Virus record (IMG/VR): IMGVR_UViG_2778261296_000007
DNA length: 21,512 nt
Direction: 5' to 3' (one strand)
Origin: a virus
Taxonomy: Duplodnaviria > Heunggongvirae > Uroviricota > Caudoviricetes
This document shows, in pieces, positions 2,410 to 20,462 of the stretch; position 1 is the first letter of the stretch; each line of letters starts with the position of its first letter. The position numbers were made by a program, and so were the translations under genes. The notes beneath the pieces were generated by a model. The model saw only the letters and a program-made list of their open reading frames with translations, did not search any database and was not told where the DNA came from.

Positions 2410-2413
2410 GGTT

Positions 2414-5318: not shown

Positions 5319-5332
5319 GGTGTTTACTCCGT

Positions 5333-6111: not shown

Positions 6112-6114
6112 GCG

Positions 6115-6318
6115 TTACTCCCACAGATTGACAGTTTCAGCCACGGGCGCGGTCTGAACGTCGGGCAGTTCGACGGCGGTGCCGTGTGGCAGCACCGCCC
6201 CCAGTTCAGCCAGTCCCGGATTTGCGGCGAGCACGGCCTCGACCACGCCCTCAGTGCGCCCGTAATATCGGACACAAATGGCGTCGAGCGTGTCGCCCTG
6301 TAGCGCAAAGGTCTTCAT
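6115..6318 (-). CDS. X: Tail protein X
   Basis: 67-aa product from internal start MKTFALQGDTLDAICVRYYGRTEG...; ATG at 6316-6318 overlaps the L stop. The track's longer 90-aa ORF (to 6387) runs back into L. Confidence 0.8.
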   Translation of the reverse strand: MKTFALQGDTLDAICVRYYGRTEGVVEAVLAANPGLAELGAVLPHGTAVELPDVQTAPVAETVNLWE

Positions 6319-6827
6319 CAGATTTGACTCACGATGCAGCGCGGCTTGTCCTGGATGCGCGCCACTGCCCAGCGCATATCCCGCCACAGCTCATCAATGG
6401 TGCTGTCTATGCTGTCGGCCTTTTTGTCGCCTTTCGCACTGGCATCCACACCGCGATAACGCTCATAAAGCGACGCGGTCGCCATCGCACACACGGCGCG
6501 CTCGTAGTAAAAAACTTTGATGCTTTCACCGTCGATGTCGTCCGCAGGGACGTCCGCCAGACGCGTAAAACCGGCGGCAATTTTCTGTTCGCGGTACTCG
6601 TACAGCTCCGCATTCGTCTCCGCCATGCCTGACTTGATGGCCTCACGCAGACGGGCGGGGGCGACGGTCTGCTCAAGGCGCATACGTTCCCGGACGCGCT
6701 TCGGGTCGATATCGGGAAAAAAGAACGTGTTTTTAATCACCGGCTCGTCGCCTGCCGGTTGCGGGATGACCACCGTACCCTCACCGGACACGGGAGCCTC
6801 CTTTCGCGGAATAATCAGCGTCATCAT
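6318..6827 (-). CDS. L: Head completion/stabilisation protein L
   Basis: 169-aa product from MMTLIIPRKEAPVSGEG..., matching the recalled P2 gpL length. The track ORF extends 20 codons further upstream (to 6887). Confidence 0.8.
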   Translation of the reverse strand: MMTLIIPRKEAPVSGEGTVVIPQPAGDEPVIKNTFFFPDIDPKRVRERMRLEQTVAPARLREAIKSGMAETNAELYEYREQKIAAGFTRLADVPADDIDGESIKVFYYERAVCAMATASLYERYRGVDASAKGDKKADSIDSTIDELWRDMRWAVARIQDKPRCIVSQI

Positions 6828-6926
6828 GACTACCTCTGAAAAGTCGGGCGGTGGACGCCGGTGCAGTGTCAGGTGATTCACCCTCACTGACCGGCGTGCC
6901 GCCCTGGCGCGGGGCGCATTCGGTTG

Positions 6927-7670
6927 TTAACTGGCTTTCTTTTTCGGGCGTCCACGTTTTGCCGGTGTCACGCTCCGGGTCTTACGCGTGGCACGGGTGG
7001 CCGCTTTGGGTTGCGGCTCCTGCTTCGGTTTCAGCTCCCGCTCCAGTCGTTCAATCTCTTTTTTGACGCCTGCCTGACAGTCGAGCTGTGTCGCACGTTG
7101 CAGGTGAGCCAGCGCACCGGCGGCATCACCACCGTCACGCAGAAACAGACCGGTGATTTTGTGCAGCTTTGCGCGCACTTCATCAGGCATGTCAGCAGCG
7201 GCAGTCAGTTCAAGGGTCTCCGTCAGCAGGCGGGGATCCACAGACTCACCGGCCGCGTGAGCGCGCATGGCCGCGAGCGCGACCTCCTCGGTGAACATGT
7301 ACGGCGGGGTGCGGCGGTGTTTACCCGGCATGGTCAGACCGTATTTCAGGGCATAACGGGCAATCTCCAGCGCACCGGCAATATCGCCGGTATCCAGACG
7401 CCACAGCATGACCGTCATCAGAATGTCATCCTGTGCGCCTTTGCCCTGCTCCAGCACGCCGTTCACCCACGGCAACCAGAACGGCAGCAGTTCGCGCTTT
7501 TTCGCGGCCTTCAGCTCTTTTGAATAAATCGCTTTCAGTGTGCGCTGGTCTGCGGCGAGCTTAACCAGCATCTGCTCATAGACAGTTGCATGTCGCAGCG
7601 GGGCGGCGTCCCGCTGCGCGGTCATCGCTGCCGAGACCCGCATCATGTGGCGCTGTGCGGGACTCGTCAT
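6927..7670 (-). CDS. M: Terminase small/endonuclease subunit M
   Basis: 247-aa ORF with a basic C-terminal tail (…TPAKRGRPKKKAS), matching recalled P2 gpM length and position next to N. Confidence 0.9.
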   Translation of the reverse strand: MTSPAQRHMMRVSAAMTAQRDAAPLRHATVYEQMLVKLAADQRTLKAIYSKELKAAKKRELLPFWLPWVNGVLEQGKGAQDDILMTVMLWRLDTGDIAGALEIARYALKYGLTMPGKHRRTPPYMFTEEVALAAMRAHAAGESVDPRLLTETLELTAAADMPDEVRAKLHKITGLFLRDGGDAAGALAHLQRATQLDCQAGVKKEIERLERELKPKQEPQPKAATRATRKTRSVTPAKRGRPKKKAS

Positions 7671-7673
7671 CGG

Positions 7674-8747
7674 TTACGCTCCCGGCTCTGCGGTCGCTTT
7701 AGCCGGTGTGGAGAAATCACCGACCTTAATTTTTTCCACCAGACAACCGGCGGCGTAGTCTTCCACCACGTAATCAATGTTCATTGACTCGTAGTTCTCC
7801 ACGCGGTCGAGTTTCGGGTTTTCCTCAATCACGCGGCGATGGCTGTCATCCATGTAGTAGATGGACAGGTTTTCCAGCTTCGTGATGAGCATCGCATCCG
7901 CCGGGAAGTACGGGACGCGTACCGCTGGCAGGTTGCCGATGCGTTTCTGGCTGATGATGACGTCAGCGGCCAGCATCTCGCTGTTGTCCTGCTCCTTGTT
8001 AACGATGGGGAAATACTTGTCCGCCAGTAGCTGACGCCCCACAATCACCACAAGGTCAGGGTCTTCCTGATACCACGGTTCAATCAGGTTGTTGGTCGCA
8101 TCCATCACCAGTGCGTCAAGGCTGGCATAATCACCGCCCTTACCCACGCGGATAACCTCAGAGGTGGTGTGCCCTTCCTCGTCAGTGACCTTGCTCATCA
8201 CACGCGCCGGGGCTTCATTGCGGTATTTCTGCAGCCAGCCGACCGCCACATCCTGCAGCATCGGATTACTGCTGCGGTCAGAGGTTTCGGCACGCTTCAC
8301 GCCGTTAAAACCGGCCATGATGAAATCAAGGGACTGGCGTTTGATAATGGCGTTACGGATACGGAGCTGGAAATCCTGATAACGCGCCCACAGGTCCAGC
8401 GTTTTGTAGCGGATATAAAAATCGAAGTTAATCTGGTCGCATTCGTACTTGTTGGACGCCAGCTTCGAGAAGTCCTTCGGCTGACGCTCGGTGCCACCGG
8501 CGGTGTCGGTGGTGCTGGCGATGGAGCCGGTGACGCCGATGCCAATTTTTTCCCCTTTCATTTCGCTGACCGGCACAATGTTGATGCGGGTCAGAAAGTC
8601 AGAGGACTCCTGCATGGTGTTCATCAGGGTCTGGGTGACCGACGGTTCAACGGTGAATTTTTTCGACACATCACCGGCGTCGATGCCGTTCAGTTCGGCA
8701 ACACGGGACAGGTAAGCATTAAATTTAAAGCGGGTTTCCTGGCGCAT
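7674..8747 (-). CDS. N: Major capsid protein N
   Basis: 357-aa ORF (MRQETRFKFNAYLSRVAELNGIDAGDVSKKFTVEPSVTQT...), matching recalled P2 gpN length and N-terminus. Confidence 0.95.
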   Translation of the reverse strand: MRQETRFKFNAYLSRVAELNGIDAGDVSKKFTVEPSVTQTLMNTMQESSDFLTRINIVPVSEMKGEKIGIGVTGSIASTTDTAGGTERQPKDFSKLASNKYECDQINFDFYIRYKTLDLWARYQDFQLRIRNAIIKRQSLDFIMAGFNGVKRAETSDRSSNPMLQDVAVGWLQKYRNEAPARVMSKVTDEEGHTTSEVIRVGKGGDYASLDALVMDATNNLIEPWYQEDPDLVVIVGRQLLADKYFPIVNKEQDNSEMLAADVIISQKRIGNLPAVRVPYFPADAMLITKLENLSIYYMDDSHRRVIEENPKLDRVENYESMNIDYVVEDYAAGCLVEKIKVGDFSTPAKATAEPGA

Positions 8748-8805
8748 AGTTTTTCCTGAAATTAAGGGTTAATCGTGAAGGTTTTCCCGGACTGACTGAC
8801 GCCGG

Positions 8806-9660
8806 TCAGCAGTTCGTCATCAGGGCGTCACCGCCACCGCCGGTGGCCTTGCTGCGACGCTGCTGGGTCAGACTTTCGGTGTGGTCGAGACTGTTTTTCA
8901 GGCGGGTGAATGCCTGACTGGTTTCATCCGCCCTGTCAGTCACCTCCTGCTTAAGAGCGGAAAAGGCTGTTTCCATCTCAGCGAGGCGCTGCTCAGTGGC
9001 GCTCAGTTTTTCCTGCACATGTTCAGCAACAGCGGTCACCGCTTCATGCACGTCATTCAGACGGGCATCATCGCTGGCCTGTTTGCGGCCAAAAATGGAC
9101 TTCACCTTTTCGGTCAGGGCGGTGAACACGGTTTCAGGCAGGTCTTCAAATTCCAGCTCAACAGGCGTTGCCACTGAAATCAGGTTTTCAGGGCTTAATT
9201 TGAAGCGGTTCAGGGGGTTGTGTTTTGCCGTGCGGCAGAATTCCAGGTATTCCGTGCCGAGGCTTGCCGGGTCATCGGTGACGGCCAGACCCACCAGATA
9301 ACATTTGCCGGTGTTGGCAAAGTTCGGCTGAATTTCCATTGAGGTGTAGACCTTCTGCGCGGCCTTGTTCATCGCGATAAGGTCATCGGTCGGGGTGATT
9401 TTCGCAAACAGCGCCCATTTGCCTTTCAGCGCCGAATCATCGTCAATCTTTTCGGCCTTCAGTTCGGCCACATCGCCATAACGCTTAAAAATACCGTCAG
9501 GCAGGATGCCGCGCAGATGTTCCAGGTTAATGCGGCAACCATAGACACGCGGGTCAAAGGTTTCGGCCATTTCCTGAATATCCTGCGCACTGATGACACG
9601 CCCGTCACAGGTGTCACCCTCAACGCCGATACGAAAGAATTTTGAGACTTTTTTTGCCAT
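8806..9660 (-). CDS. O: Capsid scaffolding protein O
   Basis: 284-aa product from MAKKVSKFFRIGVEGDTCDGRVISAQDIQEMAETFDP..., matching recalled P2 gpO. The track ORF extends 22 codons upstream (to 9726). Confidence 0.88.
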   Translation of the reverse strand: MAKKVSKFFRIGVEGDTCDGRVISAQDIQEMAETFDPRVYGCRINLEHLRGILPDGIFKRYGDVAELKAEKIDDDSALKGKWALFAKITPTDDLIAMNKAAQKVYTSMEIQPNFANTGKCYLVGLAVTDDPASLGTEYLEFCRTAKHNPLNRFKLSPENLISVATPVELEFEDLPETVFTALTEKVKSIFGRKQASDDARLNDVHEAVTAVAEHVQEKLSATEQRLAEMETAFSALKQEVTDRADETSQAFTRLKNSLDHTESLTQQRRSKATGGGGDALMTNC

Positions 9661-9833
9661 TGTCAGGAGTCCTGAATAGTGATTAGAGGAGTCACATGTC
9701 GGCATCAGTTTCCCGACGATGCGCATCCTCCGCCATCAGTCCCGGATGGCTTATCACTGACACAACAGCACCTTAGCGAATCGCGGGGCGCGACTCAGTA
9801 GCCTTGCCGTGTATTCATCACGGCGAGGTATTC
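9661..9833. promoter_or_regulatory. Divergent late-promoter region between O (leftward) and P (rightward)
   Basis: 173-bp gap between divergently oriented O and P starts. In P2 this interval holds the Ogr-activated late promoters. I found no perfect TGT-N12-ACA activator site by eye, so this call is positional. Confidence 0.45.
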
Positions 9834-11606
9834 ATGACCATCACCACAGACACCACTCTTTTACACGACCCGCGTCGTCAGGCGGCGCTGCTGTACTGGC
9901 AGGGGTTTTCCGTGCCGCAGATTGCCGCCATGTTGCAGATGAAACGCCCGACGGTGCAGAGCTGGAAACAGCGCGACAGCTGGGACAGCGTTGCCCCCAT
10001 CAGCCGTGTCGAAATGAGTCTGGAAGCGCGGCTGACCCAGCTCATCATCAAACCGCAGAAAACAGGCGGTGACTTCAAGGAAATTGACCTGCTGGGACGC
10101 CAGATTGAACGACTGGCACGGGTCAAACGCTACAGCCAGACAGGCAACGAGGCAGACCTTAATCCGAACGTCGCTAACCGCAACAAAAGCGGGCGGCGCA
10201 AACCGAAAAAGAATTTTTTCAGTGACGAGGCCATCGAAAAGCTGGAGCAGATTTTCTTTGAGCAGTCTTTCGAATATCAGTTGCACTGGTATCGCGCCGG
10301 GCTTGAGCACCGCATCCGCGATATCCTGAAATCCCGCCAGATTGGCGCGACGTTTTATTTTTCCCGCGAGGCGCTGCTGCGCGCCCTGAAAACCGGTCAT
10401 AACCAGATTTTTCTGTCGGCCAGTAAAACGCAGGCGTATGTGTTCCGCGAATACATCATCGCCTTTGCCCGTCTGGTTGACGTTGACCTGACCGGTGACC
10501 CGATTGTCCTTGGCAATAACGGCGCAAAACTGATTTTTCTTGGCACCAACTCCAACACCGCGCAGAGCCATAACGGCGACCTGTACGTCGACGAGATTTT
10601 CTGGATCCCGAATTTTCAGGTACTGCGTAAGGTGGCATCAGGTATGGCCTCACAGAGTCACCTGCGCTCGACCTATTTCTCCACCCCGTCCACGCTGGCG
10701 CACGACGCCTATCCGTTCTGGTCGGGTGAACTGTTTAACCGGGGACGCGCCAGTGCCGCCGAACGCGTGGAAATCGACGTCAGTCATAACGCACTTGCCG
10801 GAGGTCTTCTCTGTGCGGACGGCCAGTGGCGGCAGATTGTCACCATTGAGGACGCCCTGAAAGGCGGCTGCACACTGTTCGACATTGAGCAGCTCAAACG
10901 CGAAAACAGCGCCGACGATTTTAAAAACCTGTTCATGTGTGAATTTGTTGACGACAAGGCATCGGTGTTCCCGTTCGAGGAGCTGCAACGCTGCATGGTC
11001 GACACGCTGGAAGAATGGGAAGACTATGCACCATTTGCCGCCAATCCGTTCGGCTCCCGCCCGGTATGGATTGGTTACGACCCGTCACACCGTGGCGACA
11101 GCGCCGGATGCGTGGTGCTGGCACCGCCGGTGGTGGCCGGTGGCAAATTCAGAATACTTGAGCGTCACCAGTGGAAAGGCATGGACTTTGCCACCCAGGC
11201 GGAATCCATCCGCAAACTCACCGAAAGATATAACGTTGAATACATCGGTATTGATGCCACCGGCCTCGGTGTCGGCGTGTTCCAGCTCGTGCGCTCGTTC
11301 TATCCCGCCGCGCGCGACATCCGCTACACGCCGGAAATGAAAACCGCAATGGTGCTCAAGGCAAAAGACGTTATCCGCCGTGGCTGTCTGGAATATGACG
11401 TCAGCGCCACCGACATCACCAGCTCGTTTATGGCTATCCGCAAGACCATGACCAGCAGCGGACGCAGCGCCACCTATGAGGCCAGCCGCAGCGAGGAAGC
11501 CAGTCACGCCGACCTCGCCTGGGCAACCATGCACGCCCTGTTAAATGAGCCACTCACCGCCGGTATCAGCACTCCGCTGACATCCACCATTCTGGAGTTT
11601 TACTGA
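9834..11606 (+). CDS. P: Terminase large (ATPase) subunit P
   Basis: 590-aa product from MTITTDTTLLHDPRRQAALLYWQGFSVPQIAAM..., preceded by GAGG. The track ORF begins 10 codons earlier at 9804. Stop TGA overlaps the Q ATG (TGATG). Confidence 0.9.
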   Translation: MTITTDTTLLHDPRRQAALLYWQGFSVPQIAAMLQMKRPTVQSWKQRDSWDSVAPISRVEMSLEARLTQLIIKPQKTGGDFKEIDLLGRQIERLARVKRYSQTGNEADLNPNVANRNKSGRRKPKKNFFSDEAIEKLEQIFFEQSFEYQLHWYRAGLEHRIRDILKSRQIGATFYFSREALLRALKTGHNQIFLSASKTQAYVFREYIIAFARLVDVDLTGDPIVLGNNGAKLIFLGTNSNTAQSHNGDLYVDEIFWIPNFQVLRKVASGMASQSHLRSTYFSTPSTLAHDAYPFWSGELFNRGRASAAERVEIDVSHNALAGGLLCADGQWRQIVTIEDALKGGCTLFDIEQLKRENSADDFKNLFMCEFVDDKASVFPFEELQRCMVDTLEEWEDYAPFAANPFGSRPVWIGYDPSHRGDSAGCVVLAPPVVAGGKFRILERHQWKGMDFATQAESIRKLTERYNVEYIGIDATGLGVGVFQLVRSFYPAARDIRYTPEMKTAMVLKAKDVIRRGCLEYDVSATDITSSFMAIRKTMTSSGRSATYEASRSEEASHADLAWATMHALLNEPLTAGISTPLTSTILEFY

Positions 11607-12640
11607 TGAGCAAGAAAAAAGGGGAAACACCGCAACCTGCGGCAAAAAAAATGACCGCCAGCGCCCCGAAAATGGAGGCATTCACCTTTGGTGAGCCGGT
11701 ACCGGTACTCGACCGCCGTGACATTCTGGATTACGTCGAATGCATCAGTAACGGCAGATGGTATGAGCCACCAATCAGCTTTACCGGTCTGGCAAAAAGC
11801 CTGCGTGCTGCCGTGCATCACAGCTCACCGATTTACGTCAAACGTAATATTCTGGCTTCAACGTTTATCCCGCACCCGTGGCTGTCCCAGCAGGATTTCA
11901 GCCGCTTTGTGCTGGATTTTCTGGTGTTCGGTAATGCGTTTCTGGAAAAGCGCTACAGCACCACCGGTAAGGTCATCAGACTGGAAACCTCACCGGCAAA
12001 ATATACCCGCCGTGGTGTTGAGGAGGATGTTTACTGGTGGGTGCCGTCCTTCAACGAGCCGACAGCCTTCGCGCCCGGCTCCGTGTTTCACCTGCTGGAG
12101 CCGGATATTAATCAGGAGCTGTACGGCCTGCCGGAATATCTCAGCGCCCTTAATTCTGCCTGGCTGAATGAGTCGGCCACGCTGTTCCGCCGCAAGTATT
12201 ACGAAAACGGCGCACATGCCGGATACATCATGTACGTCACCGATGCCGTGCAGGATCGCAACGATATCGAAATGCTTCGCGAAAACATGGTTAAGTCGAA
12301 AGGCCGCAATAACTTTAAAAATCTGTTTCTCTATGCCCCGCAGGGGAAAGCCGACGGCATTAAAATTATCCCCCTCAGTGAAGTGGCGACGAAGGACGAT
12401 TTTTTTAATATCAAAAAAGCCAGCGCCGCTGACCTGCTGGACGCGCACCGCATCCCCTTTCAGTTGATGGGGGGCAAGCCGGAAAACGTCGGGTCGCTGG
12501 GTGATATTGAGAAAGTGGCAAAGGTCTTTGTCCGCAATGAGCTTATCCCGCTACAGGACAGGATCCGCGAGATAAACGGCTGGCTCGGTCAGGAGGTCAT
12601 CCGCTTTAAAAACTACTCACTGGACACTGACAACGGCTGA
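11606..12640 (+). CDS. Q: Portal (capsid vertex) protein Q
   Basis: 344-aa ORF (MSKKKGETPQPAAKKMTASAPKMEAFTFGEPVPVLDRRDILDYVE...), matching recalled P2 gpQ length. Confidence 0.95.
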   Translation: MSKKKGETPQPAAKKMTASAPKMEAFTFGEPVPVLDRRDILDYVECISNGRWYEPPISFTGLAKSLRAAVHHSSPIYVKRNILASTFIPHPWLSQQDFSRFVLDFLVFGNAFLEKRYSTTGKVIRLETSPAKYTRRGVEEDVYWWVPSFNEPTAFAPGSVFHLLEPDINQELYGLPEYLSALNSAWLNESATLFRRKYYENGAHAGYIMYVTDAVQDRNDIEMLRENMVKSKGRNNFKNLFLYAPQGKADGIKIIPLSEVATKDDFFNIKKASAADLLDAHRIPFQLMGGKPENVGSLGDIEKVAKVFVRNELIPLQDRIREINGWLGQEVIRFKNYSLDTDNG

Positions 12641-12645
12641 ACATC

Positions 12646-12667
12646 GCCGCCTGCGGGCGGCTTTTTT
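12646..12667 (+). terminator. Intrinsic terminator downstream of Q
   Basis: GCCGCC-TGCG-GGCGGC hairpin (12646..12661) followed by TTTTTT (12662..12667), 6 nt after the Q stop. Confidence 0.7.
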
Positions 12668-12809
12668 ACACCCCGTCATCACGCCCTCACACGCTCACCA
12701 CCGCACAAAACACCCCGCAGACACACCAACGCCTCAACGGGCAGACTAAGCGCCTTCACGACGCGCTCAGACGCTGAAAAAATAAAATCAGCACCACCGC
12801 CAGCGCGCA

Positions 12810-12828
12810 GTGCTTTCCCCGCCTCGCC
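12810..12828. other. cos cohesive-end sequence (P2-type 19-mer)
   Basis: gtgctttccccgcctcgcc is the reverse complement of GGCGAGGCGGGGAAAGCAC, which I recall as the P2 19-nt cohesive end. It sits between Q and the right-end accessory region, as expected in a prophage. Confidence 0.6.
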
Positions 12829-12921
12829 CGCCCGCTTCATGGGGCGGTTTTGATGCAACCTCGTATTAAAGGGGACACCATAGCCCATCAAACCTCAGAC
12901 TTCGCCCCTAGCTAACGTTTA

Positions 12922-12950
12922 TGAATGCAATGTAATGCAACTTAATGCAA
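12922..12950 (+). repeat. Three 10-bp-phased direct repeats of AATGCAA upstream of the cargo gene
   Basis: tgAATGCAA / tgtAATGCAA / cttAATGCAA at 12924-12930, 12934-12940 and 12944-12950, about 60-90 bp upstream of the 13012 ATG. Confidence 0.6.
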
Positions 12951-13011
12951 GTTATGGTAATGATAATTCTGCGTTAACAATTAAACTAATGTACCTGTAA
13001 GAGGATAAAAA

Positions 13012-15495
13012 ATGTCTGGTTTTTTCCTTGATTTAACCAAGCTTTCGCCCAGTGTAAATAGCGACACAGCGATTCCACCGCGAGATATATTTACAGCTCT
13101 ACCGAGCAAAGACACCAAATTTCAATACCCTCGAGATGTGCAATCAGAGGTCTGGGAAAAATGGTATGAAGCAAGGAGAAGCCCAACCAATGTAATAAAA
13201 ATGAATACCGGAAGCGGTAAAACTTCAGTTGGGTTAATCATTCTTAAAAGCTGTATAAATGAAGGAGAAGGTCCCGCTGTATATGTTGTTCCTGACAACT
13301 ATCTAGTTGAGCAAGTGGTTTTGGAGGCTAATCAACTTGGTATACCTGTAACTCAAGATGAGAGGTCCCCCAAATTTATTGCAGGTAAAGAAATTTTAGT
13401 TACAAATATATTCAAAGTGGTTAATGGACGTTCTGCATTTGGCGTTGGAGATGATGGACAAAAAATACCAATAGGTTCTATAATAATTGACGATGCTCAC
13501 GCTTGCCTTTCTTCAATTGAAGAACAATTCTCCATTAGCATTCAAAAAAATAACCCTGCCTATGATAAATTATTCAGAATTTTTGAAAATTCACTAATGA
13601 CACAAGCTGGTGCAAAAACACTAGAGATAAAATCCGGCGATAGAAATGCTTATGTGAGAGTTCCATTTTGGAAATGGCAAGAAAGCATAAATGATATAAT
13701 GACAATCTTGTTAGAAAATAAAGACCATGATGACTTGAGTTTCAAATGGCCATTAATAAAAGACAATCTAATATTATCGAAATGCGTTGTAAGTGCTTCC
13801 AAAATAGAGATATCACCTCATTGCATACCAATCCAAATGATCCCAAGCCTATCAAACGCAAGAAGAAAAATATTCATGACAGCTACTCTTGTCGATGAAT
13901 CCATTCTAGCGAGCCACTTCGGAATAACGGATGAATCACTCTCTAATCCGATAACACCAAAAACAATTGGTGATATTGGTGATAGAATGATACTAATGCC
14001 TCAGGTTATAAACCCTAGTCTTTCTGATGTAGATATCAAAGCTATGTGCAAGGAGATATCCTCCAAACATAATGTTGTTGTAATTGTACCATCCGATTAC
14101 AGAACTAGATTTTGGCAAGATGTTGCAGACAGAATATTAGATAAAAATACAATTTATCAAGGTGTACAAGAATTAAGGACACAACATGTTGGCTTAGTAG
14201 TCCTAGTTAATAGATATGATGGTATTGATTTACCAAATACCGCATGTCGTCTATTAGTAATAGATGGACTTCCTGACGTTCGTAGACTAATAGATAAAGT
14301 CTCACAAAGCTTATTGCTTGGAAGCGAAAAAACCAAAGATGAAATTATCCAGAAAATTGAACAAGGAATGGGGCGAGGAGTGAGATCAAGCGACGACTTC
14401 TGCGGAGTGATCTTACTTGGCAAAGCATTAAATGGCGCTGTTTTCCTTGGCTCCTCCTTAGAAAGGTTTTCTCCAGCAACGAAAGCACAAATTCAACTTT
14501 CACAGCAATTGGTATCGATACTGCCGGATACAACTATTGATTCAATCAAAGGTGCTCTTGATTATTGTCTGTTACGCAATTCTGACTGGGTCTCAAAAAG
14601 CAAAGGTATATTGACTGGCTTAACATTGGAAAATAAGCAGATTGACCAGCATACTATAAACAAAAGATTGGCATATGACTTAGCATCACGAAATATGTTT
14701 CAACAAGCCGCTTTAACTCTAAAAAATGATAGTAGCACAGCTGACAAAGTTTATAAGGGTTATCTAAAAGAACATGCTGCGGAATATGTAAACTTATATG
14801 ACAAATCTGAAGCTCAGATATTGCTTCAGTCTGCATCAAACGATAACTATCGGGTATTAAAACCACTAATCGGCGTAACATATAATAGACTTAATGGTGC
14901 GGCACTTGAACAGGCCAGGGAATGTAGCTCCTATCTCAGAAGTAATTTTGAATCGGCGAATCAAGTCGTTGTGCATACTAATTCAATAATAGAAAACCTT
15001 ATTTTCTCCGAGGGCACATCGAATCCCTTCGAAGATGCTATCGAAAAAGTTGCATATTTGGTCGGTTTTCGTAGCCAACGGCCAGAAAATGATACAGGTA
15101 AAGGACCTGACAATTTATGGGCAATGGGAGAAAACAATTATCTAGTAATTGAATGCAAAAATGGAGCAACCGCAGAAAGAATAAGTAAGCATGACTGCAA
15201 TCAGTTAAATGGGTCGGGTGCATGGTTCAGAAACATGTATGATCAAACTGCTACCGCCACACCTATAATGATACATCACTCTAATATGCCTGAATATGCC
15301 GCAACACTAAACGAAGGGTCTCGAATAATGACCATAAATGATCTTGAACGTTTTAAAGCATCTATCCTCAGTTTTATCACGGCCATTTGTACAAGTGATA
15401 AACGACACGATGAGATATTTATAAGAGAACAATTGATCACATGTAAATTACGTGCATCAGACATAGTTGAAACCTATACGCGAAACCCTCGTTAA
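13012..15495 (+). CDS. Cargo protein: SF2 (DEAD/DEAH-like) helicase fused to a C-terminal PD-(D/E)xK nuclease-like domain; candidate anti-phage defence protein
   Basis: 827-aa ORF with RBS AAGAGGA 6 nt upstream. Walker A NTGSGKTS (aa 65-72), motif Ia VPDNYLVEQ, motif II IIIDDAH (aa 158-163), motif III TAT (aa 290-292), motif V-like RYDGIDLP (aa 401-408), motif VI QGMGRGVR (aa 451-458). C-terminal E675...GPD700...IE714-C-K716 fits the PD-(D/E)xK pattern. AT-rich, unlike flanking phage genes. Confidence 0.85.
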   Translation: MSGFFLDLTKLSPSVNSDTAIPPRDIFTALPSKDTKFQYPRDVQSEVWEKWYEARRSPTNVIKMNTGSGKTSVGLIILKSCINEGEGPAVYVVPDNYLVEQVVLEANQLGIPVTQDERSPKFIAGKEILVTNIFKVVNGRSAFGVGDDGQKIPIGSIIIDDAHACLSSIEEQFSISIQKNNPAYDKLFRIFENSLMTQAGAKTLEIKSGDRNAYVRVPFWKWQESINDIMTILLENKDHDDLSFKWPLIKDNLILSKCVVSASKIEISPHCIPIQMIPSLSNARRKIFMTATLVDESILASHFGITDESLSNPITPKTIGDIGDRMILMPQVINPSLSDVDIKAMCKEISSKHNVVVIVPSDYRTRFWQDVADRILDKNTIYQGVQELRTQHVGLVVLVNRYDGIDLPNTACRLLVIDGLPDVRRLIDKVSQSLLLGSEKTKDEIIQKIEQGMGRGVRSSDDFCGVILLGKALNGAVFLGSSLERFSPATKAQIQLSQQLVSILPDTTIDSIKGALDYCLLRNSDWVSKSKGILTGLTLENKQIDQHTINKRLAYDLASRNMFQQAALTLKNDSSTADKVYKGYLKEHAAEYVNLYDKSEAQILLQSASNDNYRVLKPLIGVTYNRLNGAALEQARECSSYLRSNFESANQVVVHTNSIIENLIFSEGTSNPFEDAIEKVAYLVGFRSQRPENDTGKGPDNLWAMGENNYLVIECKNGATAERISKHDCNQLNGSGAWFRNMYDQTATATPIMIHHSNMPEYAATLNEGSRIMTINDLERFKASILSFITAICTSDKRHDEIFIREQLITCKLRASDIVETYTRNPR

Positions 15496-15504
15496 ACAGT
15501 AAAA

Positions 15505-15527
15505 GACCACCTCCTAAGGAGGTGGTC
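15505..15527. terminator. Hairpin between the convergent cargo gene and gene A; candidate bidirectional terminator
   Basis: GACCACCTCC-taa-GGAGGTGGTC, a perfect 10-bp stem with 3-nt loop, 10 nt after the cargo stop. A/T-rich flanks on both sides (aaacagtaaaa / cttgtataataaaaag). Confidence 0.6.
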
Positions 15528-15734
15528 CTTGTATAATAAAAAGAACCAGTTTTTATTGTTAATAATACAATTCTCGAATTTCAACATAGACTTATTGTAC
15601 CACCAGTAAAATCATCAATATTAATATATAGAAAAAAAGAAATGTCGATTATTTGTACGTAGCGTAATCATATTAACATATACAGATAAACAGCAACCTT
15701 ACCATTATGCAACCAATCTAAAACATTATGTTTA

Positions 15735-18056
15735 TTACTCTGAATAACCAGAAAACCCACTCCACTCATCTACACTAGGATATGAAAATTGCTTTTCATT
15801 GTAATTGACGATCGCACCGCGTACTAACGCCTCAAGCTCCCATCGCTGCGGCCTGATACCGTTTTGAGCAAGGTCAACACGGATACGGGTGATTTGCAAT
15901 CGTTCAGACCGGGTCAGTCTGGCCGATGGTGCAATTTCATGTGGTTTTAACGGGCTTCCGTTTCTTTGCTGACGACCTGGCGTTCTCCGACCGTGTTTTA
16001 ATGCACCCCTGAGCGCCCTCACGACCTCCGGGTCATTCCATTCGATAACACCGTCATCAACCAGATTTAGCACTGCTGCGGCGTGCTCAGAAGGTGTGGG
16101 AGCCGGTAACGAAGTATCACCACCGGTGAGCTTTCCACAGTTATTGACAGGACTCCGAGGCGCGGCGATGCCGCTTTTTAAAGTCAAAGGCTCAACGACC
16201 GGAACTTTCGGCACAATGCGCCAGTCCGTCGTTCTGGTGATATGAATATGACGCGCGCCGAGATGCGGCGCGTAAATGCCGACCACTCTCTCGACTTCTT
16301 CCTCGTATTCGTTAACGTCATCCGACGGGCTACGGGCGACCCTGACAGTCTGACAATCGCGCGGGACATTTGCCCCGCCCTGCGCGCTGATATACAGCGC
16401 AAAATCGCCACTGTCTGCGGCGGCGCGTGCAGCCTCCACGCGTTCGTCAAATTCATCAGCAATGCTGACGCCGCGAGGCAATTTACGTAGCTCACGGTAA
16501 GCTCCCATTGTCGGCAGGCCAACCGTTTTAAATTGCGGGATGCGCCACGTTGACGCCCATGCGGTAACAGCCGCCGCAGTATCTTTCAGCGGTCTGCCGG
16601 TATCGTTATCGAGCTGACCATCCAGTGCATAGCCGTCGATATTTTTTGAAATGTATTTCGCGATATATCCCGCAGCACCGCCCCGGTTAAGGTGTTTTGC
16701 CTGAAAACGGTTTCGCGCGGCTCCTCTTTCGTCGCCATCCTCTTTGAGCGCATAGCGATGCATGATTTCGATAATCTGGTTACGCTGGCGTGGATTACAA
16801 AAAAGCATCATATGCCAGTGCGGCGTTCCGTCGTGGTGTGGCTCGACGACTCGCAAACCGTAGACCTGTAAATCATTATCCTTGAATGCCGTGCGCATCA
16901 GGCTCCAGATACGGCAGAGATAACGCTGCGCATCCTTCGGATTAAATGCCTCATCATTCCAGCCGTGATTAAGCTGGACGGTTTTACTTTCGCCTTTTCC
17001 GACCTGACGTGTCGGGTGATACTTTGACGGCGCGGTCAGCGTGATAAACATCCCCACATCACCCTCTGCGGCGGCGTAACGCTCAATACCGGCAATGGTG
17101 TTCATCAGCTCCATCCGGCGAATTTCAGGATTAGAAATACTGCCCATCACCTTACTGATAAGGTCGATGCGCTCGCCGGTTTCCCTGTTTTCAAGGTCAC
17201 ACGATTTAAGAAATTCCAGATTTGCCTGGCGACGCGCACGCACATCACGAATGGCGTGTTTACTGGCATAAGGAGAACGGTCTTTATTGACCTCCCCGAC
17301 AGCTATCAGTAACGCTTCATGCCAGCGCATACGCTGGCCTTTAAGCTGATGAGTCCACCACTCATCGTTAAACAGACGGGCAATGGCAGAATATGCCTGC
17401 CTCGTGGTCATCTGCCCTTTACGGTATTTTTTCCAGTAGAGAGGGGAAATATTGAAAGCACGTGCAGCGCCAGCAACATGACCATACAGGTGAGCCTGCG
17501 CCTCATCCGTAAACAGTGATTCTTTTTCGCCATGCGCATCCACCCAGGCATCGCTGAGTTCCTCATACATCATGAAAAGCTGCGATGAGATACGGGCGGC
17601 AAACTTTTTCAGCTCCTTGTCATTCATTCCCGGCAGGCGCGCATAGTGGTCACGCTCTGCCAGAAACAGCAACGACGCGTCGGTGTTCATTTCATGGCGC
17701 TGATTCACACGCTCAATGCGCGGCCATAAACGACGCTGAAAAGTGGATGTGAGGAAATAAAACCCGTGTACCGGGCTTTTATTGCGCCGGATGTAGTCAT
17801 AGCGTGAAGTAAACAGCGAGCGCAAAAAGTAAGGCAGGCGGTTAATCGTGGATAAAACACCTTGCACCTGACGCATCTCGTCACGTGTAAGGGGTCTTTC
17901 GCGCCCGACAGCCTCGCGTGGCGCGTTCCATGCATAAGCACCGGTAAACGCCTTACCGGTGCCTGCGGCAAATGCTGACGGAGGGACAAAACGCCCGGAG
18001 GCTTTAACGGCCATATGAGCCAAAAGCCTCTGAACAACGCCTGCTGAGTTGCTCAA
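15735..18056 (-). CDS. A: Replication initiation protein A (HUH rolling-circle endonuclease)
   Basis: 773-aa ORF. Contains an HUH motif (TPHWHMMLF) and a Y-x3-Y active-site motif (GYIAKYISK). The likely true start is MAVKASGRF at 18014 (759 aa), as I recall for P2 gpA. Confidence 0.9.
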   Translation of the reverse strand: MSNSAGVVQRLLAHMAVKASGRFVPPSAFAAGTGKAFTGAYAWNAPREAVGRERPLTRDEMRQVQGVLSTINRLPYFLRSLFTSRYDYIRRNKSPVHGFYFLTSTFQRRLWPRIERVNQRHEMNTDASLLFLAERDHYARLPGMNDKELKKFAARISSQLFMMYEELSDAWVDAHGEKESLFTDEAQAHLYGHVAGAARAFNISPLYWKKYRKGQMTTRQAYSAIARLFNDEWWTHQLKGQRMRWHEALLIAVGEVNKDRSPYASKHAIRDVRARRQANLEFLKSCDLENRETGERIDLISKVMGSISNPEIRRMELMNTIAGIERYAAAEGDVGMFITLTAPSKYHPTRQVGKGESKTVQLNHGWNDEAFNPKDAQRYLCRIWSLMRTAFKDNDLQVYGLRVVEPHHDGTPHWHMMLFCNPRQRNQIIEIMHRYALKEDGDERGAARNRFQAKHLNRGGAAGYIAKYISKNIDGYALDGQLDNDTGRPLKDTAAAVTAWASTWRIPQFKTVGLPTMGAYRELRKLPRGVSIADEFDERVEAARAAADSGDFALYISAQGGANVPRDCQTVRVARSPSDDVNEYEEEVERVVGIYAPHLGARHIHITRTTDWRIVPKVPVVEPLTLKSGIAAPRSPVNNCGKLTGGDTSLPAPTPSEHAAAVLNLVDDGVIEWNDPEVVRALRGALKHGRRTPGRQQRNGSPLKPHEIAPSARLTRSERLQITRIRVDLAQNGIRPQRWELEALVRGAIVNYNEKQFSYPSVDEWSGFSGYSE

Positions 18057-18279: not shown

Positions 18280-18500
18280 GCCGTTCTCCGGTAATGTTTG
18301 TTTTTTGCTTCAAAGACTGACTGGCAGGAAACACAACGCGTGGCTGACGGATAAGCTGCACGACGGGCAGCAGGTATTGGCGCGTCACACTCTTCGCAAA
18401 CCAGCGCAGAAGCACCGCAATGTTTTACCCTTGCCGCGTTAATCTGGCGCTCCAGTAATTCAGCCTGTTGTTCCTGAATAAAATCTACGTTGTCCGGCAT
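18276..18500 (-). CDS. TraR/DksA-family C4 zinc-finger protein (P2 orf82 position)
   Basis: 74-aa ORF with CEEC-x17-CVSC cysteine pairs (…LVCEECDAPIPAARRAAYPSATRCVSCQ…), typical of phage TraR/DksA-like zinc-finger proteins. Confidence 0.7.
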   Translation of the reverse strand: MPDNVDFIQEQQAELLERQINAARVKHCGASALVCEECDAPIPAARRAAYPSATRCVSCQSVFEAKNKHYRRTA

Positions 18501-18805
18501 TACCAGTTCCTTTTGTCGTTAAGTTTCCTGAATACATCAGCGCAATAACTGGCAAGTTCTGTCGTTAATTTTGTCAGTTCATCCACGGAGGAAATTTGCT
18601 TGTGGAATACAGCGCGTTTAACAAGTAAATTGACCACATCAGACAGGAGGTTTAATTCATTCTGATAAATCGCGATAACAGATTCAGTTATGTCGCGTTT
18701 TTCTTTATCAAGACAAAGTTGAATAAGAGACAAATCACCATTTTCCATAACGGCGATTTTTAAGGCGTTATTCAGTAATACAACTGAATGAAAACAGGAC
18801 ATCAA
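18500..18805 (-). CDS. Small early-operon protein (P2 orf81 position), unknown function
   Basis: 101-aa ORF, translationally coupled to its neighbours in the cox-B-A operon. AT-richer than its surroundings. Confidence 0.6.
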
Positions 18806-19026
18806 AGCACCTCCCCGCGAGACAATCCGATATTGTGAAATTTTTCCGACTCCTGACTGAGCAGCTCGACTATCTCCACGCGGGATAACTCCGCCTTTGT
18901 TATGTGGCGAATCATGGCGTCAAGATGAGAAGAAAAACGCGTCGCAGCGTCGGCCTGTGCTTCGGTTCTGGCCTGTTGCAGCAGTAATGCGTATTTACCG
19001 CACTGATTTTCAGAAACTGTATGCAT
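18802..19026 (-). CDS. Small early-operon protein (P2 orf80 position), unknown function
   Basis: 74-aa ORF between B and the orf81-like gene, same strand, overlapping stop/start. Confidence 0.6.
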
Positions 19027-19089
19027 GACTTTCTCCAGGCAAAAAGAAGCCCCGCACGATTAAGTGCGTTAAAAACTCTGGTTAATTAT

Positions 19090-19590
19090 TTAATGCAAAT
19101 ATTGCTCTGGTTTTACCGACGTCAGAATTGTCGGTGCATACTCAAACAGACTGAATAGTTCACGTAATGCACGGAATAAAGCATCACGCCAGTAACATGA
19201 CTCTTCATTAATTCGCCAGTATGGCTGATTGAATTCTTTTTCAGTCAATCCGGCATGCATAAATAAAGTACGACGCTGACTGACTGTTAAAAAACTAATA
19301 TATGCATACTCACTTGCGCCAACCTGACGGCGTTTTGAGAATGCCCCACGCAATTCATCAATTGCACAAACCAGCCGTTCACGTTCGACGTCGTTCATTT
19401 CTTCAAAACGCATCGTTGCGTGACGTTGTTTTAACTGCGCATGAAAGCAAACTGTTAGCCGTTCGCGCTCCATCATCTGATTATAATAATCACATGTATC
19501 CTGCCAGCGAGGGACGGCAAGATGCTTACCAATTATCCGGCGCATAGCTGCTGGCTGTTTTTCGACGAGATTGAGCGTCATCACTGTCAT
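19090..19590 (-). CDS. B: Replication protein B (helicase-loader-like)
   Basis: 166-aa ORF (MTVMTLNLVEKQPAAMRRIIGKHLAVPRWQDT...), matching recalled P2 gpB length, in the cox-B-A operon. Confidence 0.85.
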   Translation of the reverse strand: MTVMTLNLVEKQPAAMRRIIGKHLAVPRWQDTCDYYNQMMERERLTVCFHAQLKQRHATMRFEEMNDVERERLVCAIDELRGAFSKRRQVGASEYAYISFLTVSQRRTLFMHAGLTEKEFNQPYWRINEESCYWRDALFRALRELFSLFEYAPTILTSVKPEQYLH

Positions 19591-19784: not shown

Positions 19785-20047
19785 GCATCACGCTGTTCAA
19801 CCGGTCGGTTATAAAACGCCTCACGTACAGCGCGATTAAACTCAGGAATGAAAACCCATTTTTCACCGGCACGAGCCTTCGGTTTGCAAGGATCACGCAA
19901 TTCAATAATTGGTAATTTATTTGCCTTCACCATTTCACTGACGGCTGTCTTTGGCTTCCCTAATAAATCAGCAAATTTATCCACATGAACCGCATCAAGC
20001 GGATACTGAATCACATAATTTTCAGCGTCCATATATGGTACCCTCAT
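19760..20047 (-). CDS. cox: Cox (excisionase / repressor of Pc)
   Basis: 95-aa ORF (…MDAENYVIQYPLDAVHVDKFADLLGKPKTAVSEMVKANKLPIIELRDP…), the first gene of the leftward early operon opposite C. Start could be the second Met at 20032. Confidence 0.8.
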   Translation of the reverse strand: MRVPYMDAENYVIQYPLDAVHVDKFADLLGKPKTAVSEMVKANKLPIIELRDPCKPKARAGEKWVFIPEFNRAVREAFYNRPVEQRDAWLLWMGL

Positions 20048-20168
20048 AGGATCCAGCCCTTTCTAAACCACTCAAAACCGTTTAGACGCTGGTTTATTCT
20101 CAAATCAATGGAACCTATATAGGTTCCAGTTTTGAGGGAATTTAGTCCCTATATAGGCACCATGTCAA
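20048..20168. promoter_or_regulatory. Pe/Pc divergent promoter-operator region (lysis-lysogeny switch)
   Basis: 121-bp interval between divergent cox and C. Contains palindrome GGAACCTATATAGGTTCC (20110..20127), a second CCTATATAGG copy (20148..20157) and an inverted repeat TCTAAAC-N11-GTTTAGA (20062..20086). Confidence 0.6.
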
Positions 20169-20462
20169 ATGAAATTAAGCGAAAAGATTAAGGCCTTGCG
20201 TGAGGCTGAAGGGCTAAGCCAATCAAAATTCTGTGAAATCATAGAGTTACCGCTAAGCACACTTAAAAAATATGAAGGAGGAAACTTTGAACCCGGTGGC
20301 ACAGCTTTGCTAAAAATCACTATGCATCCCACATTCCAAAAATATGCTCTATGGCTTATGACAGATAAAACCGCGCCGGACGCAGGACAAATCGCACCGG
20401 CTCTCGCGCACATTGGGCCAGAGTCAACAGAGTCCAACCACTCCGCGAAAAGGATTGGCTAA
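20169..20462 (+). CDS. C: Immunity repressor C
   Basis: 97-aa ORF with an N-terminal HTH-like segment (LSQSKFCEIIELPLSTLKKYEGG) and a C-terminal block (…QIAPALAHIGPE…) close to what I recall of P2 C. Located between the switch region and int. Confidence 0.85.
   Translation: MKLSEKIKALREAEGLSQSKFCEIIELPLSTLKKYEGGNFEPGGTALLKITMHPTFQKYALWLMTDKTAPDAGQIAPALAHIGPESTESNHSAKRIG

What the first reader, a model, noticed from the sequence alone, without database searches (positions are those of the whole stretch)
12890..15810. AT-rich compositional island whose right junction lies inside the 3' end of gene A
The sequence from just right of cos through the cargo gene and intergenic DNA is visibly AT-rich, in contrast to the GC-rich phage backbone on either side (by eye, not computed). 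The AT-rich tract continues into roughly the last 25 codons of A (15738..about 15810) before composition returns to backbone-like. This suggests the cargo was exchanged by recombination with one breakpoint inside the A 3' end, which would create A C-terminal variants linked to different cargo.
Basis: inference. Interest (0 to 1): 0.5.

Follow-up and report, generated by a model that had tools for sequence, protein, structure and literature searches.

The report
P2 defence hotspot reaching into gene A
The AT-rich island is the well-known swappable defence-gene slot of a P2-like prophage, here holding an Hna anti-phage gene, and its right edge really does lie inside replication gene A, whose last 30 codons are an old, diverged version of the normal A tail that is inherited together with the cargo.

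Summary
Observation confirmed. GC is 0.367 over window 12860-15826, against 0.565 to the left and 0.538 in the rest of gene A. GC change-points fall at 12913 and 15807.

The island is the known cos-proximal gpA-gpQ hotspot of P2-like phages. Its single gene (13012-15495) is an Hna-family helicase-nuclease defence gene.

Homology to phage P2 breaks at 15827/15828, 30 codons before the A stop. Those 30 codons are not foreign filler. They keep the conserved gpA tail motif, but against the canonical tail they are saturated at synonymous sites and use cargo-like, AT-rich codons (GC3 0.33).

The tail and the cargo co-occur in 70 of 5,426 E. coli genomes and in the same 7 IMG/VR contigs. In those contigs, ~12803/12811 to ~15863/15878 is nearly identical while both flanks diverge, and the right-hand crossover point varies. 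This fits cassette exchange by homologous recombination.

The pattern is general: 25 of 34 cargo types on the E. coli backbone have their junction inside the A tail. Linkage is not absolute, since P2's canonical tail goes with at least 8 cargo types.

The hotspot and the cargo family are known. The sub-gene junction map is a modest addition.

The parts
11606..12640 (+). gpQ portal gene, the conserved left flank of the hotspot
   Evidence: Pfam Phage_portal. 98-100% aa identity to Q in most related loci.
12799..12858 (.). Conserved cos block, with the 19-nt cohesive-end sequence at 12810-12828
   Evidence: The 19-mer equals P2 cosR as annotated. Diversity across 55 cargo types is 0.02-0.26 here and 0.4-0.7 on both sides. 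The near-identical cassette block begins at 12803-12811.
12859..12923 (.). Cos-side spacer that varies in sequence but keeps its length (left 'homology decay' zone)
   Evidence: Diversity is 0.4-0.7, yet the next element keeps a fixed offset of +114 from cos in about 45 of 56 cargo types.
12924..12950 (+). Three AATGCAA heptamers with a 10-nt period, upstream of the cargo gene
   Evidence: Copies at 12924, 12934 and 12944. Similar heptamers sit at +114/+124 from cos in most loci, including P2. In P2 the old-tin mRNA starts lie about 30 nt downstream of one. L081 has a fourth copy.
13012..15495 (+). Cargo: Hna-family SF2 helicase-like / PD-(D/E)xK nuclease gene (827 aa), GC 0.374, GC3 0.29
   Evidence: PADLOC PDC-S28, E=0. 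Pfam ResIII/DEAD/Helicase_C_2. PDB 9YHN/9YKJ/10UJ (Hna), E 5.8e-121 over residues 60-792, with Walker A, Walker B and the D...ExK triad conserved.
15496..15734 (.). Very AT-rich convergent spacer (GC 0.285) with a 14-bp-arm terminator-like hairpin at 15502-15530
   Evidence: Not shared with the diverged cargo copy in L053.
15738..15826 (-). Diverged, AT-shifted allele of the gpA C-terminal tail (last 30 codons, LVRGAIVNYNEKQFSYPSVDEWSGFSGYSE), co-inherited with the cargo
   Evidence: Homology to P2 ends at 15827/15828. GC3 is 0.33, against 0.52 expected from A-core codon usage. pS >1 and pN 0.19 against the canonical tail. Found only with this cargo.
15815..15845 (-). Conserved nucleotide patch encoding RWELEALARGA, the last stretch well conserved between divergent P2-like lineages. 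The junction falls inside it.
   Evidence: Between-lineage identity is 0.82-0.86 here and 0.4-0.7 in the preceding ~130 nt.
15735..18014 (-). Gene A (rolling-circle replication initiator). The mechanical ORF runs to 18056 from a TTG; the probable start is the ATG at 18014.
   Evidence: PF05840, E 2.5e-123. phrog_91 match starts at residue 15. N-terminal sequence.
16146..16166 (.). P2 ori nick-site sequence (GCGCC/TCGGAGTCCTGTCAA), about 330 nt from the junction
   Evidence: P2 record annotates the nick at 29892. The sequence is identical in the window and aligns to ~16156.

Best explanation
The island is the cos-proximal accessory-gene slot of a P2-like (Peduovirus) prophage, lying between the cos site next to portal gene Q and replication gene A. 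Here it holds one Hna-family abortive-infection gene.

The variable unit is not bounded by the genes. It runs from about 30 nt right of the cohesive-end sequence (12859) to 30 codons inside A (15826).

The last 30 codons of A are an old allele of the normal gpA tail. The tail starts with a structured beta-hairpin and carries a Y..F.Y...DEW.GF motif. This allele has sat next to AT-rich cargo long enough, or came from a distant enough P2-like donor, to be saturated at silent sites and shifted to cargo-like codon usage.

The whole block, from cos to tail, moves between P2-like backbones by homologous recombination. One crossover falls in conserved A sequence just upstream of the tail. The other falls at or left of cos. 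Because crossovers need homology, they become rarer toward the cargo. The tail therefore stays linked to the neighbouring cargo DNA and gpA becomes chimeric at its C-terminus.

Shown: the composition, the junctions, the linkage, the mosaic pattern and the tail's conservation.
Inferred: the recombination pathway, its timing, and the age or source of the tail allele.
For: Composition and change-points.

Identity of the locus: gpP, gpQ and gpA by Pfam. The P2 reference has A-orf91-tin-old-cosR in the same arrangement.

Junction: the window is ~97% identical to P2 up to CTTGAGGCG, and identity collapses at 15827.

Population picture:
- Diversity per codon is ~0.05 in A. It rises from codon 6-7 and is random after codon 31, with aromatic anchor residues conserved.
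- 25 of 34 cargo types break inside the tail.

Codon usage and divergence:
- Tail GC3 is 0.33, cargo 0.29, A core 0.55.
- pS >1 and pN 0.19 against the canonical tail.
- Tail divergence against GC3: rho -0.79, p 4e-8.

Linkage: 70/70/70 E. coli genomes, 7/7 IMG/VR contigs, and the permutation test.

Cassette exchange:
- In seven loci, ~12803/12811 to ~15863/15878 has 0-1 mismatch per 200 nt.
- The Q side differs by 2-5% or ~20%.
- The A side becomes divergent from 15864, 15879, 15977, 16308 or ~17200 in different loci.

Other support:
- A conserved patch lies at the junction.
- The tail motif persists down to 47% identity.
- AF2 gives pLDDT ~90 for residues 157-199 of the 214-aa fragment.
- A Rouxiella P2-like prophage with a 70%-identical cargo also has its AT-rich tract running into A.
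- Rousset et al. 2022 (PMC9122126) describe the gpA-gpQ hotspot and proposed cos ends plus homologous recombination.
Against: - The seven mosaic loci and the 70 genomes may represent few independent events, because all cargo copies are at least 99% identical.
- No donor lineage with this tail on a different A core was found. Import from a distant phage cannot be told apart from long in-place divergence.
- Diverged copies of the same cargo family sit behind other tails, and the canonical tail serves many cargos. So the tail is not an obligate part of the cassette.
- Part of the low GC comes from amino-acid composition.
- The codon-usage test on this single tail rests on 30 codons (binomial p 0.03).
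- No recombination was observed directly.
Confidence: 0.75

Rival explanations
1. There was no exchange inside A. The AT-rich 3' end only reflects the amino-acid make-up of the gpA tail (N, Y, K, F, D, E), which needs AT-rich codons in every P2-like phage.
For: Canonical tails are also below the A average: GC is 0.45-0.51 in the last 75 nt against ~0.55 upstream. The window tail's amino acids with A-core codon usage would give GC 0.47.
Against: Observed GC is 0.40 and GC3 is 0.33, against an expected 0.52. Compared with the consensus there are 18 GC-to-AT changes and 7 AT-to-GC. Nucleotide identity to P2 falls from ~97% to about 60% exactly at 15827. In P2 itself the AT-rich tract starts only after orf91.
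Confidence: 0.04
2. The gpA tail is hypervariable because the tail itself is under diversifying selection, for example to escape defence systems or satellites that recognise gpA. Its association with cargo is only a by-product of proximity.
For: pN/pS is higher in the tail (0.37) than upstream (0.15). Several tail positions vary equally at all three codon positions. The region after 'GF' varies freely in length and sequence.
Against: pN/pS stays well below 1. Silent sites are saturated, which selection on the protein does not explain. Tail divergence tracks a shift to cargo-like GC3. Junctions continue smoothly into non-coding DNA. The cos-side flank, which is non-coding, shows the same graded divergence.
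Confidence: 0.1
3. The cargo entered by illegitimate or site-specific insertion (transposon, integrase, or end-joining at cos ends). This replaced the end of A with unrelated DNA that happens to keep the frame open.
For: The same cargo family sits in unrelated elements: a lambdoid prophage and an integrase island. So some non-homologous step must have brought it into a P2-like phage at some time. Rousset et al. 2022 suggested that cos ends act as recombination substrates.
Against: The tail keeps the conserved gpA motif and length, so it is homologous to other tails and not unrelated DNA. The island holds no recombinase gene and has no flanking repeats beyond chance. Junction positions are scattered over codons 6-36 and beyond, not fixed at one site.
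Confidence: 0.08

Closest known systems
P2-like phage gpA-gpQ (cos-proximal, 'old/tin') defence hotspot: Rousset et al. 2022 (PMC9122126); Moura de Sousa et al. 2026 (PMC13586616). From memory, also the 'TO region' of Odegrip et al. 2006, which I could not read.
   Same: Same position between replication gene A and portal gene Q, next to cos. Content is hypervariable and AT-rich among otherwise ~95% identical phages, and a defence gene is the cargo. In P2 the slot holds orf91, tin and old.
   Different: The papers I could read define the slot gene by gene, and one reports almost no linkage between defence genes and any whole core gene, GpA included (Spearman at most 0.2). Here the border is mapped at nucleotide level inside A. 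Linkage is strong, but only over the last ~30 codons. In P2 itself the junction lies outside A, after orf91.
Hna, single-gene helicase-nuclease abortive-infection system of Sinorhizobium meliloti (structures 9YHN/9YKJ; bioRxiv 10.1101/2025.11.12.688083)
   Same: One protein of ~830-845 aa. It aligns over residues 60-792 at E 5.8e-121. Walker A (GSGKT), Walker B (DDAH) and the nuclease D...ExK are conserved, including the lysine that aligns with the essential K729.
   Different: It is a diverged orthologue on a prophage rather than a chromosomal rhizobial gene. Its activity, its trigger (phage SSB in S. meliloti) and its phage range were not tested here. PADLOC v2 still lists the family only as candidate PDC-S28.
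Divergent flanks around variable cassette loci exchanged by homologous recombination, such as capsule or O-antigen loci and hsdS regions (general knowledge, not tested here)
   Same: A variable cassette lies between conserved genes. Divergence rises steeply toward the cassette, the flanks are mosaic, and crossover points vary.
   Different: Here one decay zone lies inside an essential phage replication gene and yields chimeric proteins. The other includes the packaging site.

Membership tests
P2-like gpA-gpQ cos-proximal hotspot | Lies between replication gene A and portal gene Q of a P2-like phage | tested here: met
   PF05840 GPA and Phage_portal flank the island, and the terminase gene lies beyond Q. 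The early region has int, C, cox and B-like genes. 93-96% nucleotide identity to Peduovirus records.
P2-like gpA-gpQ cos-proximal hotspot | [quoted passage not shown] | tested here: met
   The 19-nt sequence identical to annotated P2 cosR is at 12810-12828. Cargo-specific sequence starts at ~12859.
P2-like gpA-gpQ cos-proximal hotspot | Content unrelated between otherwise closely related phages | tested here: met
   56 cargo clusters among 73 loci. 34 cargo types sit on a backbone at least 89% identical in A. Annotated cargos in relatives include Fic, a retron, DUF4238 and HNH.
P2-like gpA-gpQ cos-proximal hotspot | AT-rich relative to the phage backbone | tested here: met
   GC 0.367 against 0.565 and 0.538. 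Cargo GC is 0.34-0.48 in nearly all related loci. P2 tin/old is ~0.27-0.40.
Hna defence system | Single ~830-845-aa protein with N-terminal SF2 ATPase motifs (Q, Walker A, Walker B) | tested here: met
   827 aa. GSGKT at residue 67 and DDAH at 160 align with Hna K72/T73 and D162/D163. An R..Q sequence at residues 41-44 is a plausible Q motif.
Hna defence system | C-terminal PD-(D/E)xK nuclease with catalytic lysine | tested here: met
   PDNLW (699) and ECK (714) align with Hna D713 and E727-x-K729. K729 is essential according to bioRxiv 10.1101/2025.11.12.688083.
Hna defence system | Confers phage resistance by abortive infection and is activated by a phage SSB | not testable with these tools
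   Needs plaque assays and co-expression experiments.
Site-specific or transposable cassette (integron, transposon, integrase island) | A recombinase gene and/or defined repeats at both borders | tested here: not met
   The only long ORF in the island is the cargo. There are no terminal inverted or direct repeats beyond chance. Junction positions differ between cargo types.
gpA rolling-circle initiator (PF05840) | GPA domain and the P2 ori nick sequence inside the gene | tested here: met
   PF05840 over residues 147-476, E 2.5e-123. The nick-site sequence is identical to P2 at ~16156.

The most novel reading that the evidence does not exclude
The slot is a hotspot because it lies between the two programmed DNA breaks of the P2 life cycle. 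One is the terminase cut at cos (12810-12828). The other is the gpA nick at ori (~16156, only ~330 nt from the junction). Breaks at these sites would drive recombination that swaps the intervening end segment. Chimeric gpA C-termini would be a tolerated by-product, or even a tuned partner of the linked defence gene.
Probability: 0.12. Interest if true: 0.55.

Novelty: new member of a known kind. Interest (0 to 1): 0.3.

Why it matters
The island itself is ordinary: a known hotspot holding a member of a known defence family. The sub-gene picture has some practical value.

1. Tools that delimit P2 hotspots by gene borders will misplace the right junction in about three quarters of cargo types. 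They will also treat gpA as uniform when it is C-terminally chimeric.
2. The finding reconciles 'no linkage between defence and core genes' at gene level with very tight linkage over the last ~90 nt of A.
3. The graded divergence on both flanks, with functional motifs retained, is a readable record of how cassette exchange by homologous recombination works in a small phage genome.
4. It gives defined constructs (tail swaps, truncations after W27 or GF) for asking what the conserved gpA C-terminal hairpin does.

Tried and rejected
- A protein search with only the last 60 aa of A returned 24 short fragments and no donor lineage.
- The cargo protein and the tail DNA were not found in the one-genome-per-species collection, so the tail's source could not be traced.
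The accepted alignment gave a model that is confident only for residues ~95-200.
- The Foldseek search of PDB with that model gave nothing below E 3. The idea that the last two helices plus the hairpin form a winged-helix-like unit is therefore untested.
- Rfam found nothing in the window.
- The promoter scan found no convincing cargo promoter in 12860-13011.
- A 13-nt direct repeat (12725-12737 and 15823-15835) touches the junction. About three such pairs are expected by chance in 3.3 kb, and the left copy lies outside the exchanged block, so I rejected it as a recombination site.
- Odegrip et al. 2006 (PMC1367236) is not held, and Nilsson et al. 2004 is not in the library. I cannot exclude that they already noted the junction inside A.
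- Three literature searches for the TO region or the gpA C-terminus returned nothing specific.
- Functional coupling of tail and cargo was considered and judged unlikely. The canonical tail works with many cargos, and diverged Hna copies have other tails.
Full report

Yes.

- A 300-nt sliding profile drops from 0.55-0.62 to 0.31-0.41 between about 12900 and 15900.
It is 0.565 for 1-12859 and 0.538 for the rest of gene A.
- The island lies 21.8 binomial SD below the left backbone. It is the lowest-GC stretch of its size in the window, and nothing outside it falls below 0.446.
- Maximum-likelihood change-points are 12913 (support 12846-12929) and 15807 (support 15800-15818).

**2. What the locus is**

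The window is a P2-like (Peduovirus) prophage.

- Terminase gpP is at 9804-11606 and portal gpQ at 11606-12640.
- The GPA replication protein is at 15735-18056 on the minus strand (PF05840, E 2.5e-123).
- Beyond A lie B-like, cox, C and int genes.
- The 19-nt cohesive-end sequence is at 12810-12828 and is identical to the annotated cosR of P2.

In phage P2 the same interval holds orf91, tin and old. This is the cos-proximal gpA-gpQ hotspot of anti-phage genes described by Rousset et al. 2022 (PMC9122126) and surveyed again by Moura de Sousa et al. 2026 (PMC13586616).

**3. The cargo**

The only substantial ORF is 13012-15495 on the plus strand (827 aa).

- It matches the PADLOC candidate PDC-S28 with E=0.
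- It has an SF2 ATPase N-terminus.
- It matches the solved structure of Hna (9YHN, 9YKJ, 10UJ) at E 5.8e-121 over residues 60-792.
- Walker A (GSGKT), Walker B (DDAH) and the nuclease triad (PDNLW...ECK) are conserved. The lysine aligns with K729, which is essential in Hna (bioRxiv 10.1101/2025.11.12.688083).

Hna is a single-gene abortive-infection system. It is a 3'-5' ssDNA exonuclease held inactive as an ATP-bound dimer and released by a phage SSB. I therefore file the cargo as an Hna-family member by sequence. Its activity was not tested.

The family is very widespread, with 52-56% identity in cyanobacteria, Pseudomonas and Legionella. Enterobacterial copies sit in several kinds of element:
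- a P2-like prophage of Rouxiella;
- a lambdoid prophage of Cronobacter, next to the lambda-P-like gene;
- an integrase island of Pectobacterium.

**4. Where homology breaks on the A side**

The window is about 97% identical to P2 through the ori nick sequence and on to CTTGAGGCG (codons L-E-A of ...RWELEA). Identity collapses from 15827 downward. So the last 30 codons (15738-15826) belong to the variable unit. The 20-nt offset from the GC change-point arises because codons 6-10 (L-V-R-G-A) need GC-rich codons.

In P2 itself the tail is the canonical ...ARGATVNYDGKKFTYPVADEWPGFSTVMEWT, and the AT-rich tract starts only after orf91. A junction inside A is therefore a property of this variant, not of every P2-like phage.

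**5. Is the tail foreign?**

No. It is a diverged allele of the same tail.

I fetched 80 IMG/VR loci with the A C-terminus and anchored them on the R codon of RWEL (window 15845-15843).

Diversity pattern, among 47 non-identical loci on the E. coli-type backbone:
- Diversity per codon is about 0.05 in A.
- It steps up at codon 6-7 (window ~15825) and is 0.2-0.46 through codons 11-30.
- It reaches the random level (~0.65) from codon 31 (window 15752 and below).
- Inside this zone Y14, F19, Y21, D25, E26, W27, G29 and F30 stay conserved.
- The motif ...RGA.V.Y....F.YP..DEW.GF persists in gpA fragments down to 47% identity (Serratia, Hafnia, Ewingella).

Structure: an AlphaFold2 model of the last 214 residues is confident (pLDDT 80-91) for two helices (157-172 and 179-186, the second being RWELEALV) and a beta-hairpin (190-199, IVNY-NE-KQFS). 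It is weaker for YPSVDEWSGF and disordered at the last five residues. So the first half of the variable tail is predicted to be a structured part of gpA.

Divergence from a canonical tail:
- The window's tail has pS above 1 (saturated) and pN 0.19.
- The 206 codons upstream have pS 0.11 and pN 0.006.
- Across tails, pN/pS is 0.37, against 0.15 upstream. Constraint is relaxed but still purifying.

**6. Composition of the tail**

- GC3 is 0.33 in the tail, 0.29 in the cargo and 0.55 in the A core.
- The tail's own amino acids would give GC3 0.52 (GC 0.47) with A-core codon usage, and GC3 0.30 (GC 0.39) with cargo usage. Observed GC is 0.40.
- Compared with the consensus tail there are 28 differences in 75 nt: 18 GC-to-AT and 7 AT-to-GC.
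- Canonical tails have backbone-like GC3 (0.52-0.64).
- Across 34 distinct tails, divergence from the consensus correlates with low GC3 (Spearman -0.79, p 4e-8).

Roughly a third of the GC drop in the window's tail is explained by amino-acid content. The rest is a cargo-like codon shift. For this one tail the test rests on 30 codons (binomial p 0.03). The trend across loci carries the weight.

**7. Linkage of tail and cargo**

- In 5,426 complete E. coli genomes, the tail (15738-15830), the cargo gene and the whole 12300-16600 segment are each found in 70 genomes. All copies are at least 99% identical. 2,196 genomes have some P2-like match.
- In IMG/VR, a 30-nt tail probe hits exactly the seven contigs that carry the 100%-identical cargo.
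- Across 71 non-identical loci, 14 of 19 same-cargo pairs share a tail cluster. In 2,000 permutations the mean was 0.6 and the maximum 4.

Linkage is not absolute:
- P2's canonical tail occurs with 8 cargo clusters and a second common tail with 5.
- In most of those pairs identity continues 600-1000 nt beyond the A stop. The tail is therefore linked to whatever lies next to it, and cassettes are nested mosaics.
- Copies of the Hna gene at 89-90% aa identity, on backbones with 76-78% identical A, have other tails. In L053 homology to the window starts only at the cargo stop codon.
- L026 and L031 share a cargo but have tails that differ upstream of a common end, so crossovers inside the tail also occur.

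**8. Evidence for cassette exchange**

I compared the seven loci carrying the identical cargo with the window.

- The block from 12803/12811 to 15863/15878 has 0-1 mismatch per 200 nt.
- The Q side differs by 2-5% in four loci and by about 20% in two (Q protein 80% identical). One locus has an extra 2.3 kb between the Q 3' end and cos.
- On the A side, backbone-level divergence resumes at 15864 (two loci), 15879 (two), 15977, 16308 and about 17200.

A young block inside older, different flanks, with varying crossover points in conserved sequence, is the signature of homologous recombination. The whole tail was inside the block every time.

The junction at 15827 lies within the only patch near the end of A that is well conserved between divergent P2-like lineages. 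Between-lineage identity is 0.82-0.86 over 15845-15815 and 0.4-0.7 in the preceding ~130 nt. This fits a crossover between distant relatives at that patch. That step is inference.

**9. How general is it?**

- Using P2 as reference, 25 of 34 cargo types on the E. coli backbone depart from P2 inside the tail, and 6 of them before codon 20.
- The window's junction (codon 6) is the deepest seen. Nine depart at or after the stop, six of these at +335 to +337, after orf91.
- A distant P2-like prophage of Rouxiella silvae, with a 70%-identical cargo, also has its AT-rich tract running about 120-170 nt into A.

**10. The cos side mirrors this**

- Across 55 cargo types the conserved block is 12799-12858. 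Sequence is variable beyond it.
- Even so, an AATGCAA-like heptamer keeps a fixed offset of +114 from cos in about 45 of 56 cargo types, including P2.
- So 12859-12923 is a spacer that varies in sequence but keeps its length. The GC change-point (12913) falls inside it.

Both flanks therefore show graded divergence with functional elements retained.

**11. Rivals**

- *Pure amino-acid composition.* It cannot explain the homology break, the silent-site saturation or the GC3 shift.
- *Diversifying selection on the tail.* pN/pS is below 1, and the non-coding cos flank shows the same pattern.
- *Site-specific or transposon-like insertion.* The island has no recombinase gene, flanking repeats do not exceed chance, and junctions are scattered. 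However, some illegitimate step must once have brought Hna into a P2-like phage, because the family also sits in unrelated elements.

**12. Comparison with what is known, and novelty**

The hotspot, its AT-richness (from memory of Nilsson 2004 and Odegrip 2006, which I could not read) and the cargo family are all known. Rousset et al. already proposed cos ends plus a homologous crossover.

The papers I could read treat the slot gene by gene. Moura de Sousa et al. report almost no linkage between defence genes and any whole core gene. The addition here is at sub-gene level:
- the junction usually lies inside A;
- gpA has a motif-constrained but highly polymorphic C-terminal tail;
- linkage with cargo is tight over only ~90 nt.

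That is a useful refinement, not a surprise for a specialist. Interest 0.3.

**13. What remains open**

- The source and age of the tail allele. No donor was found.
- The number of independent exchange events.
- The function of the gpA C-terminal hairpin.
- Whether the nearby ori nick (~16156) or the cos cut stimulates the exchange.

Noticed in passing
window 12924-12950; also P2 (L097) and most of L001-L080: Three exact AATGCAA heptamers with a 10-nt period lie upstream of the cargo gene. A similar heptamer sits at a fixed +114 (often also +124) from the first base of the cos 19-mer in about 45 of 56 cargo types, although the sequence in between varies. One more copy lies at +42 inside the conserved cos block. 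L081 has a fourth copy. These could be terminase or packaging sites, or part of the cargo promoter: in P2 the old-tin mRNA starts about 30 nt downstream of one.
   Followed up: partly
L083 1475-3792 (between window 12564 and 12803): One Hna-carrying relative has about 2.3 kb of extra DNA between the 3' end of Q (homology stops 76 nt before the Q stop) and cos. This suggests a second variable site on the other side of cos whose junction may also lie inside a core gene.
   Followed up: no
window ~16146-16166: The P2 ori nick-site sequence is perfectly conserved and lies only about 330 nt from the cargo junction. The hotspot is therefore bracketed by the two programmed DNA breaks of the phage, the ori nick and the cos cut.
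   Followed up: partly
L094/L095 (Cronobacter), L092/L093 (Pectobacterium), L091: Hna homologues at 77-82% aa identity sit in a lambdoid prophage between the lambda-P-like gene and the RusA/Q region, in an integrase-associated island, and next to a lone portal gene without A (a decayed P2-like element). The same defence gene thus occupies slots of unrelated mobile elements.
   Followed up: partly
L096 6730-6900 (Rouxiella silvae): A distant P2-like prophage with a 70%-identical Hna gene has an AT-rich tract (GC 0.29-0.37) running about 120-170 nt into its A gene. That A gene has a quite different C-terminus (...GNECFRGYSDGEIYSFLAPKNSLVKCIRLKRK).
   Followed up: partly
L054, L055, L056 (A 3' region); L013, L065: Three loci have in-frame stops or frameshifts in the last ~40 codons of A, so A is probably a pseudogene there. 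In two others A ends right after ...DEW, which suggests that residues beyond W27 of the tail are dispensable.
   Followed up: no
window 12725-12737 and 15823-15835: A 13-nt direct repeat (ACCAACGCCTCAA / ACTAACGCCTCAA) has its right copy straddling the A junction. About three such pairs are expected by chance in the region, and the left copy lies outside the exchanged block, so it is probably coincidence.
   Followed up: yes
window 12679-12891 (-): A 70-aa ORF that spans the cos site matches phrog_17350 (unknown function, E 1e-40). It is probably an ORF called across cos in many phage annotations rather than a real gene.
   Followed up: no
window 18014-18056: The mechanical ORF for A starts at a TTG (773 aa). 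Family matches start at residue 15 and there is an ATG at 18014, giving about 759 aa (P2 gpA is 761 aa).
   Followed up: partly
window 18450-19500 and 19950-20400: There are further, milder low-GC stretches (0.38-0.44) in the early region around the small orf80-83-like genes, the B-like gene and the cox/C switch. They were not examined for variability.
   Followed up: no
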